Positions 3,484-46,095 of a stretch of DNA of 64,000 nucleotides are shown one piece after another. Below the pieces are notes generated by a model. It made no database searches, had not been told where the DNA came from, and saw only the letters and a program-made list of their open reading frames with translations. This DNA comes from the human T2T-CHM13v2.0 reference genome, Homo sapiens, in assembly GCF_009914755.1 (NCBI RefSeq), contig NC_060947.1. One strand, 5' to 3'. A program made the translations under genes and the position numbers. Positions within the stretch are counted from its first letter, which is position 1. Each line of letters opens with the position of its first letter.

Positions 3484-3525
3484 ATCATAATATCCGTCGG
3501 CAGAAGGATAGATTATTATTGGAGG
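3484..3525 (+). pseudogene. TSX: Candidate short fossil TSX exon (42 nt)
   Basis: Unique sequence bounded by ttatag| and |gtaagt. Translation (D)HNIRRQKDRLLLE aligns only loosely to recalled mouse Tsx DDDTDDQADEPLS. Lies 1.2 kb upstream of the clear exon. Confidence 0.5.
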
Positions 3526-4409
3526 GTAAGTTATGAAAACTTGTATTCACGTTAATTGTCATCTTTGTGGTGACAGCTGTATTGAATTAAAATGAACAAC
3601 AAGCACTAAACTATCTTGTTACATACTGGGGTGAAGCATACATAAGGTGTACCCCTTCCTGGGACATTTTGGAGTAATAGCTAGGAATTTATCACACTTC
3701 ATTTGTTAAAAGAAATAAACCTTTGCTCTCTCTACTCACTGACATTGGTAACTTCTTCTGACTCAAAAGAGTACTACTGGAACAAGCCTCCAAAAAAAGG
3801 TGTCTTTGGGGTCTTGATTACTCATGTTGTTCTTCCAGCCTTTTTTATGGAAGTTGGTCGGTGCCAGCTTCTGTTTTGTACTCAGTTTTCAGCCTGGGAT
3901 CCTCCCAAGACTAAATGGACTGAGATTGCTAATAACTCTAAAGAATGAAGTACAATGCCTTAGAAATCTGGTAAACTGAACTACCAGGAACACTAGCAGA
4001 AAATAAGATTTTAGATTTAGAGTTTTCTTAGAGCTTATTTATTTAATAATGAGAGCAGGGGATAGGAGACTCAAAGTGCAACCATTCCCTTTTGCAGAAG
4101 CACAACCTCAATTGCCTAGACAAGCATGTTTTCCACTGTGAATGGCTCAGAATTATCATTGCAACATAGGTAAAACACTTTGTTATCACTGGTAAACCTA
4201 CTTTTATTAATAATATTGGAAATCGAAACTTAATACCTGTGACTTGAGCCAAAAACAGGAAAAAACTGGAAATTCCAAACTGAAGCATTTTTTAAAAAGT
4301 AATCAGTAACCAAAACAAAGACATCAAGTGAACTTGCTTTAACTATCATAAATACTTTGAAGCAAAATATCTATTCAGCTCAACAAACTAAAGCATCTGG
4401 CTATAGAAT

Positions 4410-4500
4410 TATGAGAAAATGAATTCATCTCCCTGGGCTTTCATTTCCTCATCTGTAAAATAAAGAATTTGGTCTTGGTGATTCATAATCTCCCTTTAGG
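4410..4500. mobile_element. MIR fragment
   Basis: MIR core-like ctgggctttcatttcctcatctgtaaaataaag. Confidence 0.6.
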
Positions 4501-4692
4501 GAGAGCTGGCATTCTGTTGTATGTATTATTGAATTCAATATTAACTACTCATTTACTTTGTTCTAGTGTTTGGATTGCCCTTAAAATAATAGACTACTAC
4601 TAAGGTCTCTGTTTTGAATTGTATACAATATGGCATTGGGGCAAACAGCTCTCCAGAGTGTTTATTCTTATATTGTTTATTTTTTTTCCTAG

Positions 4693-4777
4693 CCATGCAG
4701 GATCATTTGCCTTCCTGCAAGATGTTCTTCAATAAAACAGGATTAGCAATGCTGATAATGGAGATATTTGCCAGAGT
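4693..4777 (+). pseudogene. TSX: Fossil TSX exon (85 nt) with in-frame TAA at 4733-4735
   Basis: Strong acceptor tttttttcctag and donor gtaagt. Translation [27 protein letters not shown] matches recalled mouse Tsx AAEFLHLQDILQEDRVSSTDDEDTCQA. Confidence 0.85.
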
Positions 4778-42800: not shown

Positions 42801-44839
42801 TCATATATCTACATTTCCTTGGGGTTGATTACTGGAGCTTTATTAGTCTCCTGTGGTGGTGTCATGTGTGCCTGATTTTTTTAAAATCCATGTAGCCTCA
42901 TATTGATGTCTATACATTTGAATGCACAAACATCTCTTTCAGTCTTTACTGACTGGCTTTGGCAGGTAAAGACCTTTTCCTGTTGGATCCCCAAGCTTAT
43001 GGAATTGCCATCTAGATTGCAGTGAAACAGTCTTGGAGCTGAGTCACATGGCTGTTGCTGGGTGCCCAGCAGGTCTGCAGTTGGTGTGTCTGTTAACAGA
43101 GTCTCAGACTAATGTAGATTCTGTCTAGCTCCTATGGACTGAACTACCTTCAGGACCTTCATCAATAGAGCTAGCTCTGGTTAAAGTGTCCACTTCAGTG
43201 TCTTTAGACAGTGGACTTGTTACCAGGTGGTATAAATGAGTGTGGTTTCCACTGAATCATTGGGAGGGCTCTTATCAATTTACTGGCCAGGTCCCTGGGC
43301 AGGAAGGACAGGCCACATATCATGGCTGAGAGGAGCTGAAACCAAGTCATAGGGCTACTTCAGGGTCCACAGCTGAGAATGAGGTCTGCAAACCTGACTC
43401 CAGGGGCATGGACAGGTATGCATCCTCCTGGGTGGGAAGGCAGGACTACTCCTAATTTTATCTGAGTGAACCTGGATCTTTGTCTCAGGGCTGCTTCAGA
43501 ATCTGCAGTCAGAACAAAATTAGTAGGCCTACCACCCAGGACATGGATGGGCATGTTACCCAACAAATCCCTGAGTGGGAAGGACTACTCCTGGACCATG
43601 ATTGGGAAGGGGTAGAACTGAGTTACAGTGCTGCCTCATGATCCACAGTCAGACTGAGCTTGGCAAACCTGCCTCCAGTAGCACAAATGGATGTGTCTAC
43701 TGGTGGATACCTGGAAAGGCAGAAATATGCTCAGACCACAGTTAGGAAGAGCTGGAACTGAGTTACAGGACTGTTTCAGAATCTGCTATGGGACTGAATT
43801 TAGCAGACCTGCTTCTAAGGGTGTGGATGGGCATGTATCACAGCATATTCATGTGCGGGCAGAACTGTTGCCCAATCACATCTGAGAGGGGATGGAGGCA
43901 GGTCATGGATCCTTTCAGGGTCCATATCCAGGACCAAGGTTAGCAGGCCTATTACCTAAAACATGGTGTAGGCATGACTTCTCTTGGGTTTCTTGGCATA
44001 TGGATTGGGTGGCAGATCCAAGACTAAACAGGACTGTAGCTGAGTCCACAGGGGGCAACAATGTTTCTAGGTCTGTAGCCAGGACTGTGGTAGGCAAGCC
44101 TTCCACCTGGGCACAGGCCTGCCTTCTCACAATGGTCCTCCTTGGCCTTGTGCTCCACCAAGATTTTGCAACTTCCTACCTGGATCCCAAAGCTTCCACA
44201 AAGGCACTTTTGTTTGTGGATAGTTCCCAAATTATTGTTGTTGTGGAAGGATATAAGGGGGGATACCTGTTATTCTGCCGTCTTGTTCTCACATAGCTTC
44301 TTAACATACCAAACTCTGTAAAGCATGCTTACTACTTCTCTATGAAAGTCACCAGTTAAAATTCTGGAAAGGACAGGGCTTTGAAGAATAAAGCCTCAGG
44401 ACAGTACTATGGAACATCATCAGAACACTCTTTACACTTTTGTAATAATTTCTTAATCAGAACACTTAACATAGAGAACTCTAAATAGTTACATGCTCAC
44501 TTAATTGTATTATTATCCAATCCATATATCTCTGTGTTGTCTACAAGGATATAATTAAAGACCATGTCAAATACTTCCTTGAGATTAAAATGTGATATAA
44601 CCCACATTGGTGATCTGTCTAGCTTGTAAACATGTCAAAACAGAAAATGCAGTTAGTCTGATGTTAATGGATTATTTTTTTAATTTTTACTGCACGTTGG
44701 GGCCTAGTAAGTAGCTCTTTCACTTTTAAGTGCTGACGGCCAACCTTTTAAATAAGCTATTCTAAGATTTTGGGGGGAGACTGGCATAAAGTTTACTGTT
44801 ATTTGGTTGAAACATTTCATTCTCGTGTGTTATACAAAT

Positions 44840-45492
44840 ATAGTCAACTCTCAGCATTCATGGTAGTTATGCTCTATAAAGCCACTGCAAACATTGATTT
44901 AGCAAATACTGAACCATTTCTTCTAGAGGAAGTACAGGGTTAAGTTCTTGTGAGCCTCTGGTCACAAAACGTTTTTCAACCAGTCAATATATAACCTTGT
45001 TTTATGTGTGTTTCCGTTTAAAGCCACGTTATTTGAATATATTGTTGTTTCATTAACTTTGAGATTAGGGGCAAAACCACTATAATTCATGCCTGAACCA
45101 AGCTTATCTAACACGTGTATTTTATCCTCACGGCCTATCCCATTCTTGCCCTTAGGACCCCTAGACAACACTTCAGCACTATGCTTGCCAGCAATTTAAA
45201 ATAGTAAAACCACCAACAAAAGAAACAAAAATGTGAAAGACATGATAGGAAATAGACAATACAAAAGATATTTGTTTATAGTATGAGAGATGAAACAAAA
45301 AGACAGAGTATCACTTTGTTCAACCTCAGCTGGAAATGTGCACTTCAGATGACTCACAATTTTTACCACTCTGAGCATGTTTACAAATAACTGAAAAAGT
45401 GATGTAAGTATTAATTTGGGGATTACAACTAAATTTTAGAAAGGAAGTGAATTTTCAAATACAGAAAATGTAAATATTAGGGATCAGCTATG
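44840..45492. mobile_element. MER82-like TcMar-Tigger DNA transposon
   Basis: Degenerate terminal inverted repeats with TA flanks. Body resembles MER82 (gtagttatgctctataaagccactgcaaac). Confidence 0.75.
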
Positions 45493-45994
45493 TAATAATC
45501 TTCTCAAATAGCTTCAATATACCTACCTTGAAGCTGAGGGTAATAGCACTGGAGAGTTGGGCATGATGAGACTTCAATGATGTAATCTTTTATAAGATTT
45601 TTAAAGAAATGAAATAAATGTCAACAATAACAGAAGAAAATTGAAGATTATAGTAAGCAACTGAGACAACTAAAGTATTCTAGAACCAACTGTTGAATCT
45701 CCCCAGGTTATCTGGTGCTATTAAATTGCATAACCTAGTATCATAAGAACGTTGTACTCAAGGTCCATTTTCCAAAGGTTATTAAAGTACTTCTTGATGT
45801 GGGGAAAGGGCAATGACCAGGTTATAGGGTAGAGCTGGTTTACTAAGCTTTGTTCCAACTTGACTTGCCCTCCTTAACACTATCACTTATAGTGTTAACA
45901 CTAACACATAAATCCTTCTTCTTTGACTGCCGGAAGTTCCATCTAGTCCCTATTTCCATTTTGACTTTCTCTAGTGTCTTTAATCATTCCATAG

Positions 45995-46095
45995 GTGCCC
46001 ATAGTGGGAGAAGGTGAGACCAGCCACAGTAATAGTGACACTGATAATGTGAAGGTCACCATTTGCAGCATAAAGAAATGTTTCTCTGTGTTCAT
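45995..46095 (+). pseudogene. TSX: Fossil TSX exon (101 nt); donor reads GCGTGT
   Basis: Acceptor cattccatag. Phase-0 start matches the phase-0 end of exon 4693-4777. VPIVGEGETSHSNSDTDNVKVTICSIKKCFSVFM matches recalled mouse Tsx GCTEDDETSHSDRDIDNNVKVITGNIKASPSMYM and the FIP1L1 motif DDVHVTIGDIK. Confidence 0.85.

What the first reader, a model, noticed from the sequence alone, without database searches (positions are those of the whole stretch)
3484..46095. Fossil TSX (FIP1-derived) gene hidden as tiny exons in a sea of repeats
Seen: two exons with good acceptors and compatible phase (4693-4777 ends phase 0, 45995 starts phase 0) that join to [60 protein letters not shown], plus a likely 42-nt upstream exon. 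Knowledge (recalled): this aligns to mouse Tsx, an X-inactivation-centre gene derived from Fip1l2, and the primate orthologue has been described as pseudogenised. The ORF track largely misses it. Inference: the splice sites are well preserved despite coding loss, so the locus might still yield a spliced non-coding RNA upstream of TSIX, as rodent Tsx has been proposed to act partly as an RNA.
Basis: partly seen in the sequence, partly recalled or inferred. Interest (0 to 1): 0.85.

Follow-up and report, generated by a model that had tools for sequence, protein, structure and literature searches.

The report
Known dead human TSX gene relic
The window holds scattered leftover exons of the long-dead human TSX gene, itself derived from an old FIP1-like gene, next to the X-inactivation genes; the relic is real but was described years ago.

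Summary
With its TAA read as X, exon 4693-4777 matches Pfam TSX (PF17397) at profile positions 58-83 (E 0.0014). The open frame starting at 45995 matches positions 90-126 (E 0.0016). Outside these two exons, 0 of 123 other X-region translations hit TSX.

Exon C also corresponds to human FIP1L1 exon 4: same phases, 101 vs 104 nt, and the best gapless match among 127,800 window positions. However, its donor is GC, not GT.

The 42-nt exon at 3484-3525 has no support.

A Fip1-motif exon lies at 58704-58846 (+), inside annotated TSIX (Pfam Fip1 33.8 bits; one of only three hits in the genome).

The literature already calls human TSX a non-expressed pseudogene derived from Fip1l2 (Anguera 2011, Elisaphenko 2008, Chang & Brown 2010). 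The identity is therefore correct but not new. The residual spliced-RNA idea could not be tested here and runs against published statements. No direct alignment to mouse Tsx or chicken Fip1l2 was possible, because neither sequence was reachable.

The parts
4693..4777 (+). One base completes a codon, then 28 codons, ending in phase 0. In-frame TAA at 4733-4735.
   Evidence: Pfam TSX PF17397, profile 58-83, E 0.0014, 19.2 bits, with TAA read as X. With flanks: profile 56-85, gapless, E 0.0012. Strong acceptor and GTAAGT donor. Single copy. No detectable similarity to FIP1L1 exon 3 beyond sharing its phases.
45995..46120 (+).
Evidence: Pfam TSX profile 90-126, E 0.0016, 19.1 bits. FIP1L1 exon 4 peptide has TSX as its own best Pfam hit (profile 86-115, E 0.015). 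tblastn FIP1L1 exon 4 ORF: 10/18 identical, E 0.11. Gapless nucleotide match 47/101, rank 1 of 127,800 positions. Rank 1 of 3416 ORFs against a 3-sequence FIP1 profile, E 1.3. Same phases as FIP1L1 exon 4, 101 vs 104 nt. Base pair at the ancestral donor position is GC. Single copy.
58704..58846 (+). Fip1-motif exon relic of the ancestral FIP1-like gene, homologous to FIP1L1 exon 7. The 3' end at 58846 is inferred from a GT in phase 0.
   Evidence: Pfam Fip1 PF05182: 33.8 bits (cut-off 22.7), one of only 3 matches in the whole genome; 33.4 bits, E 3.2e-8. PDB human FIP1 chains 7zyh_B and 7k95_B, E 7e-7 and 8e-7. tblastn FIP1L1 exon 7 ORF, 54% over 37 aa, E 3.7e-8. blastn 78.5% over 65 nt. Gapless 73/140, z 6.5, rank 1 in 108 kb. 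AG acceptor at the same position as in FIP1L1.
3484..3525 (+).
   Evidence: 0 Pfam hits in three frames. Gapless identity to FIP1L1 exon 2 is 12/40, about average. Smith-Waterman rank 1297 of 3194 windows. Weak acceptor and strong donor. The only frame that joins exon B in the TSX frame carries TAA and TAG (read directly). Single copy.

Best explanation
These are decayed exons of a unitary (unprocessed) pseudogene: human pseudo-TSX, with further relics of its ancestor, the FIP1-like gene called Fip1l2 in chicken.

The ancestral gene ran on the + strand from the CHIC1 side towards the 3' end of XIST. After it lost its coding role in early placental mammals, rodents kept part of it as Tsx. In the human lineage the exons drifted. 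One TSX exon now carries an in-frame stop. The next has lost the ancestral donor. Repeats and a processed pseudogene (SEPHS1P4) have swollen the intron between them to 41 kb. The N- and C-terminal parts of TSX are no longer detectable.

The Fip1-motif exon survives 12.6 kb further on and is now simply part of the sequence transcribed as TSIX.

Shown: homology of exons B and C to TSX, of C and the 58.7-kb exon to FIP1, and their order and strand. Inferred: that the relics have no function of their own today. Taken from print: the evolutionary history.
For: - Exon B and exon C each hit Pfam TSX, at profile 56/58-83/85 and 90-126 (E 0.0012-0.0016). They are on the same strand and in order. By extrapolating the gapless matches they are contiguous at 83|84.
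- 0 of 123 other X-region translations hit TSX: 3 exon-A frames, 15 read-through translations covering 1-4202 and 46101-48952, 102 natural ORFs, the alternative frame of exon B and the Fip1 ORF, and 46094-46240.
- A primate ORF 93% identical to exon C (P0015) also hits TSX, E 0.0018.
- FIP1L1 exon 4 maps to the same TSX profile region. It aligns gaplessly to exon C with the same phases.
- The Fip1 motif at 58704-58846 is supported.
- Pseudogene state: TAA at 4733-4735; GC at the ancestral donor position; TSX profile 1-55 and 127-145 not found; each exon scores below the Pfam cut-off of 25.8 bits.
- Print (passages read): human TSX is believed to be a pseudogene and shares homology with mouse exons 1, 3, 4, 5, 6; Tsx aligns to three Fip1l2 exons (PMC3164691). 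'Pseudo-TSX', six Fip1l2 exons similar in human and mouse, and exon 17 homology 2 kb from the XIST end (PMC2430539). 'Non-expressed pseudogene' (PMC2841178). 'No longer functional' (PMC3695352).
Against: - No direct alignment to a mouse or rat Tsx or a chicken Fip1l2 sequence was possible. The only TSX reference used is the Pfam profile.
- Each TSX hit is below Pfam's gathering score. The whole-genome search with PF17397 reported nothing at E <= 10.
- The exon C to FIP1L1 signal is only just above noise when not pre-specified: tblastn E 0.11, profile E 1.3, and rank 2 (48 vs 49 matches) in the extended 108 kb.
- A chance tblastn hit of E 0.003 occurred inside SEPHS1P4.
- FIP1L1 exons 1, 2, 3, 5, 6 and 8 gave nothing above noise.
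- Lack of function is inferred. No expression or conservation data could be examined here.
- HMMER filters and the 20-aa minimum may hide further short relics.
Confidence: 0.9

Rival explanations
1. The relic is still transcribed and spliced into a non-coding RNA upstream of TSIX, using the preserved sites of exons A, B and C.
For: Exon B keeps a strong acceptor and a GTAAGT donor, and exon C keeps an 11/15 pyrimidine tract plus AG. Mouse Tsx is reported to act as a long non-coding RNA (PMC3164691, abstract and passages). The + strand carries more GTAAGT sites than the - strand (16 vs 6), though this was not followed up.
Against: [quoted passage not shown] The supplied RefSeq table has no model here. 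Exon C lacks a canonical donor at the ancestral position. Exon A has a weak acceptor and no homology support. The rule that picks exon B also picks 7 other donor sites on the + strand, so good sites are not rare here. The intron would be 41 kb.
Confidence: 0.07
2. The exon-like pieces are chance open frames with chance splice-like flanks in AT-rich DNA, and are not homologous to TSX or FIP1.
For: Each single score is modest: 19 bits, below the Pfam cut-off, and tblastn E 0.11. Chance Pfam hits of E 0.0036 (Got1) and a chance tblastn hit of E 0.003 do occur in this DNA. For exon A this reading is the likeliest.
Against: Two separate pieces hit the same one of 24,736 Pfam families, on one strand, in order and abutting in the profile. 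None of 123 other translations does. FIP1L1 exon 4 hits the same profile region. Position 45995 is the single best of 127,800 positions in a gapless test that was fixed beforehand. The Fip1-motif exon downstream is beyond doubt.
Confidence: 0.02
3. The pieces persist because they now serve as regulatory DNA of the X-inactivation centre (enhancer or boundary elements), not as exons.
For: Chang & Brown 2010 note that the human-mouse conserved blocks 3' of XIST are ancestral TSX exons (passage). The region holds RefSeq-listed enhancers at 33138-34023 and 50788-51487 (hub table).
Against: None of the four parts overlaps a listed enhancer. The human lineage evolves slowly enough that a roughly 100-My-old neutral exon can still be recognised (general knowledge, not computed here). 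No conservation or chromatin data were examined.
Confidence: 0.06

Closest known systems
Mouse and rat Tsx (testis-specific X-linked; Pfam TSX PF17397)
   Same: Two collinear pieces match the TSX profile (56-83 and 84/90-126). The position is the same: between CHIC1 and TSIX/XIST (hub table; PMC3164691 passage).
   Different: In-frame stop. Profile 1-55 and 127-145 were not found. The intron is 41 kb. Each piece scores below the gathering score. Reported as not expressed in human (PMC2841178). The mouse sequence itself was not available for alignment.
Human FIP1L1 (chr4), the surviving paralogue
   Same: Exon C corresponds to exon 4: same phases, 101 vs 104 nt, and the motif V-x-V-T-I-x-x-I-K. 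The 58.7-kb exon corresponds to exon 7, which carries the Fip1 motif, with the same acceptor position.
   Different: Of the FIP1L1 coding exons 1-8, only these two are detectable. Exons 1, 2, 3, 5, 6 and 8 gave nothing above noise. There is no continuous coding frame.
Chicken and frog Fip1l2, the published ancestor of Tsx (Duret 2006, cited in PMC2430539 and PMC3164691)
   Same: By the published account, the same syntenic slot and the same orientation, tail to tail with Lnx3/XIST (passages).
   Different: Not tested here: no Fip1l2 sequence was reachable. The Duret paper itself was not seen.
Other X-inactivation-centre genes born from dead protein genes (XIST from Lnx3, JPX from Uspl, FTX from Wave4)
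   Same: The same kind of history at the same locus (PMC2430539 passages).
   Different: Those became functional RNAs in human. For TSX nothing of the kind is shown.

Membership tests
TSX (Pfam PF17397) | Sequence matches the TSX profile at or above the curated cut-off (25.8 bits) | tested here: not met
   Exon B 19.2-19.5 bits; exon C 19.1 bits. Each is below the cut-off. The two are separate exons and could not be scored as one protein. Whole-genome search: nothing at E <= 10.
TSX (Pfam PF17397) | Pieces collinear with the profile, on one strand, with exon ends abutting | tested here: met
   Exon B covers profile 56-83 (gapless). Exon C starts at 84 by extrapolation and is matched over 90-126.
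TSX (Pfam PF17397) | Intact open reading frame over the whole profile (145 positions) | tested here: not met
   TAA at 4733-4735. Profile 1-55 and 127-145 not found in + strand 1-4837, 46101-58533, or window -5000 to -1600. This makes it a pseudogene, not a gene.
TSX (Pfam PF17397) | Lies between CHIC1 and XIST/TSIX | tested here: met
   Hub annotation table for the window: CHIC1 upstream; TSIX from 57527; XIST from 85972.
TSX (Pfam PF17397) | Testis, stem-cell or brain transcript | not testable with these tools
   No RNA data. Print says non-expressed in human (PMC2841178).
FIP1 family (Pfam Fip1 motif PF05182) | Fip1 motif above the curated cut-off (22.7 bits) | tested here: met
   33.8 bits and 33.4 bits at 58673-58783. 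PDB human FIP1 E 7e-7.
FIP1 family (Pfam Fip1 motif PF05182) | Shared exon-intron structure with FIP1L1 | tested here: met
   Exon C vs exon 4: phase 0 start, 2-nt overhang at the end, gapless, acceptor shifted by one codon. 58.7-kb exon vs exon 7: AG at the same position. Only these two exons could be compared.
FIP1 family (Pfam Fip1 motif PF05182) | Full-length coding gene | tested here: not met
   FIP1L1 exons 1, 2, 3, 5, 6 and 8 have no match above noise in 108 kb.
Processed (retrotransposed) pseudogene | Exons fused, no introns | tested here: not met
   Relics lie 41 kb and 12.6 kb apart, with intron-type flanks. It is a unitary, unprocessed pseudogene.

The most novel reading that the evidence does not exclude
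The 4777^45995 junction, which exactly restores the TSX frame across 41 kb, is still used in some human cell type (testis, naive pluripotent cells or early embryo). That would give a spliced human TSX RNA just upstream of TSIX, acting in cis on the XIST/TSIX neighbourhood as mouse Tsx is proposed to do.
Probability: 0.06. Interest if true: 0.5.

Novelty: already known. Interest (0 to 1): 0.15.

Why it matters
The finding adds little beyond bookkeeping. The human TSX pseudogene and its Fip1l2 origin have been in print since 2002-2008.

What this check adds is exact T2T-CHM13 coordinates for two TSX exon relics and one Fip1-motif relic. None appears in the supplied RefSeq table. It also adds two notes. 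The junction 4777^45995 abuts exactly in the Pfam TSX profile. The best-preserved Fip1l2 exon now lies inside the annotated TSIX transcript.

Only a demonstrated human transcript using these exons would raise the interest, because the regulation of human XIST from its 3' side is poorly understood.

Tried and rejected
- Fetching Tsx or Fip1l2 proteins failed.
  - The search for homologous proteins with the Fip1 ORF found none.
  - With exon C it returned only a 158-aa ORF call from a primate contig, 93% identical.
  - The search of protein representatives with the Fip1 ORF returned 13 hits, FIP1-family proteins and ORF calls, none a Tsx. tblastn of three of these FIP1-family hits plus a 2106-aa hit of unknown family (P0004, P0009, P0005, P0003) against the X region found only the Fip1 motif.
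- Mouse Tsx primers printed in PMC3164691: 0 matches at up to 3 mismatches for each of 3 primers, as expected at this divergence.
- Protein search of the whole genome with exon C found only itself.
- tblastx of the window against the FIP1L1 locus, after a crude repeat filter, showed nothing useful.
- A rival exon-3 candidate at 43369-43395 (7/9 identical to the end of FIP1L1 exon 3) lies in a dispersed repeat with 23 genomic matches. Rejected.
- A candidate at 45441-45480 is the top + strand gapless match to FIP1L1 exon 2 (25/40). It sits within noise (24, 23, 23 elsewhere; four - strand positions score as high or higher in the extended region). Not accepted.
- A weak hit of a FIP1L1 exon ORF at 84356-84445, outside the window (E 1.1), was not pursued.
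- PDB search with the exon C frame gave only chance hits.
- Papers not held: Chureau 2002 and Migeon 2002. Duret 2006 was not sought. These hold the original human TSX maps and any expression tests.
The supplementary figures and tables of PMC2430539, which may list human coordinates, were not seen.
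Full report
**What was checked.** The window is human T2T chrX:72,168,001-72,232,000, between CHIC1 and XIST (hub table).
- 3486-3524 reads HNIRRQKDRLLLE.
- 4694-4777 reads [27 protein letters not shown], with TAA at 4733-4735.
- 45995-46093 reads VPIVGEGETSHSNSDTDNVKVTICSIKKCFSVF.

I call these exons A, B and C.

**Splice-like flanks.**
- Exon B has a strong acceptor (13 of 15 pyrimidines, then TAG) and a GTAAGT donor.
- Exon C has a fair acceptor (11 of 15), but GC rather than GT after 46095.
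- Exon A has a weak acceptor (7 of 15) and a strong donor.

Such flanks are not rare here. A simple rule (pyrimidine tract, YAG, then GTAAGT 30-200 nt on) finds units at 8 donor sites on the + strand and 1 on the - strand. Flanks alone therefore prove nothing. All three stretches are single copy in the genome. The same tool did find 23 copies for a repeat-borne candidate, so the single-copy result is meaningful.

**Direct test of TSX identity.** No mouse Tsx sequence could be reached. Pfam, however, holds a TSX family, PF17397, with 145 positions.
- The 82-codon open frame starting at 45995 matches profile 90-126 (E 0.0016, 19.1 bits).
With flanks it matches 56-85 without gaps (E 0.0012).
- In that gapless match the first full codon of exon B falls on profile 56 and its last on 83. 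Extrapolating the exon C match back to its first codon gives profile 84. This last step is inference from the reported ranges; no residue-level alignment was printed.
- A 158-aa ORF call from another primate, 93% identical to exon C, also hits TSX (E 0.0018).

**Controls for the TSX hits.** None of 123 other translations from this X region hit TSX at E <= 10:
- three frames around exon A;
- 15 read-through translations covering + strand 1-4202 and 46101-48952;
- 102 natural + strand ORFs of 20 aa or more, from 4214-4822, 48903-58533 and the stretch about 1.6-5 kb upstream of the window;
- the other frame of exon B and the Fip1 frame;
- 46094-46240.

The strongest chance hit to any family among the 102 ORFs was Got1 at E 0.0036. 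A single hit of this strength can therefore be chance. Two hits to the same family out of 24,736, in order and abutting, cannot reasonably be.

Caveats: each hit is below Pfam's cut-off of 25.8 bits; the whole-genome search with PF17397 reported nothing at E <= 10; and HMMER's filters may hide weaker pieces.

**Test of the FIP1 origin.** I fetched the paralogue FIP1L1 from chr4 and mapped its exons 1-8.

*Exon 4.* FIP1L1 exon 4 is 104 nt, starts in phase 0 and ends with two bases of a codon. Exon C is 101 nt with the same phases. The two align without internal gaps, with the acceptor shifted by one codon. The FIP1L1 donor GT falls on GC at 46096-46097. Scores:
- Protein similarity is 10 of 18 identical (SHSNSDTDNVKVTICSIK against SDSDDDEDDVHVTIGDIK), E 0.11-0.12.
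- In a gapless nucleotide test against all 127,800 positions of the window, 45995 (+) is the single best, at 47 of 101; the next best + strand positions score 44.
- In the extended 108 kb, with the full 104 nt, 45992 is second (48 against 49 at 77581).
- A profile of three FIP1-family segments ranks the exon C frame first of 3416 six-frame ORFs, but only at E 1.3.
- FIP1L1 exon 4 itself has TSX as its best Pfam hit (profile 86-115, E 0.015). This ties the three together.

This signal would not have been found blind. As a test of a position fixed beforehand it is strong.

*Exons A and B.* Neither shows similarity to FIP1L1 exons 2 and 3, although exon B shares the phases of exon 3.

A search of the whole genome with the Pfam Fip1 motif gives three matches among 41 scored candidates. 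Two are in FIP1L1. The third is at window 58673-58783 (+), with 33.8 bits against a cut-off of 22.7. The frame reads GIDPFDYFNYEFTKDIWKAYCVKQ. Supporting scores:
- PDB chains of human FIP1, E 7e-7;
- FIP1L1 exon 7 at protein level, 54% over 37 aa, E 3.7e-8;
- FIP1L1 exon 7 at DNA level, 78.5% over 65 nt, and 73 of 140 gapless, z 6.5, rank 1.

The AG acceptor sits at the same place as in FIP1L1. This relic lies 12.6 kb beyond exon C, on the same strand and in the expected order. It is inside the annotated TSIX transcript, which starts at 57527 (hub table).

FIP1L1 exons 1, 2, 3, 5, 6 and 8 gave nothing above noise in 108 kb.

**Ends of exon C.** The TSX match runs to residue 42 of the frame, about 46120. 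The ancestral FIP1 donor seems to have been lost, with TSX-type sequence continuing beyond it. Where the exon ended is open.

**What is in print (passages read, not whole papers).**
- Anguera 2011 (PMC3164691): Tsx aligns to three exons of chicken Fip1l2. It is believed to be a pseudogene in human, cow and dog. Human TSX shares homology with mouse exons 1, 3, 4, 5 and 6.
- Elisaphenko 2008 (PMC2430539): human 'pseudo-TSX'. [quoted passage not shown] Further exons were found in the human sequence. [quoted passage not shown] - Shevchenko 2013 (PMC3695352): human TSX 'is no longer functional'.
- The original papers (Chureau 2002, Duret 2006) were not available. The published human coordinates could therefore not be compared with mine.

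**Verdict.** Exons B and C are true relics of TSX. Exon C and the 58.7-kb exon are true relics of a FIP1-like gene. Exon A is unsupported. The whole is a unitary pseudogene that has been known for some twenty years.

It is weakened by the lost donor of exon C, the weak acceptor of exon A, the published 'non-expressed' statement and the absence of a RefSeq model. I give it about 6-7%.

Noticed in passing
window 57527-58846: The annotated TSIX transcript starts about 1.2 kb upstream of the Fip1-motif relic, on the same strand. Human TSIX RNA therefore contains this old coding exon within an 83-codon open frame (58607-58855). A public protein library holds a 95-aa ORF call (P0002) that is 100% identical over 78 residues but has a different N-terminus.
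   Followed up: partly
window, whole: GTAAGT occurs 16 times on the + strand and 6 times on the - strand. Exon-like units (pyrimidine tract, YAG, then GTAAGT) occur at 8 donor sites on + against 1 on -. Four of the + donor sites (9527, 11448, 22076, 55285) lie in repeats shared with the chr4 locus. Repeat orientation may therefore explain part of the asymmetry.
   Followed up: no
window 35426-35497 (inside SEPHS1P4): The ORF bearing FIP1L1 exon 3 gives its best tblastn hit here (10/24 identical, E 0.003). It lies inside the processed SEPHS1 pseudogene and is taken as chance. It is a warning about how strong chance matches get in this search.
   Followed up: partly
window 45330-45480: Two small exon-like units lie 0.5-0.7 kb upstream of exon C: 45330-45403 (acceptor plus GTAAGT) and 45440-45469 (AG ... 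GTAAAT). The second holds the best + strand gapless match to FIP1L1 exon 2 (25/40), which is within noise.
   Followed up: partly
outside the window, window coordinates 84356-84445 (locus L020): Weak + strand similarity to a serine-rich FIP1L1 exon ORF (E 1.1), about 1.5 kb from the XIST 3' end. It is near where Elisaphenko 2008 report Fip1l2 exon 17 homology.
   Followed up: no
protein P0004 (library hit, not in the window): A 473-aa FIP1-family protein with two near-identical copies of the Fip1-motif region (Pfam Fip1, 2 stretches). This is possibly an assembly or prediction duplication. Its origin is unknown.
   Followed up: no
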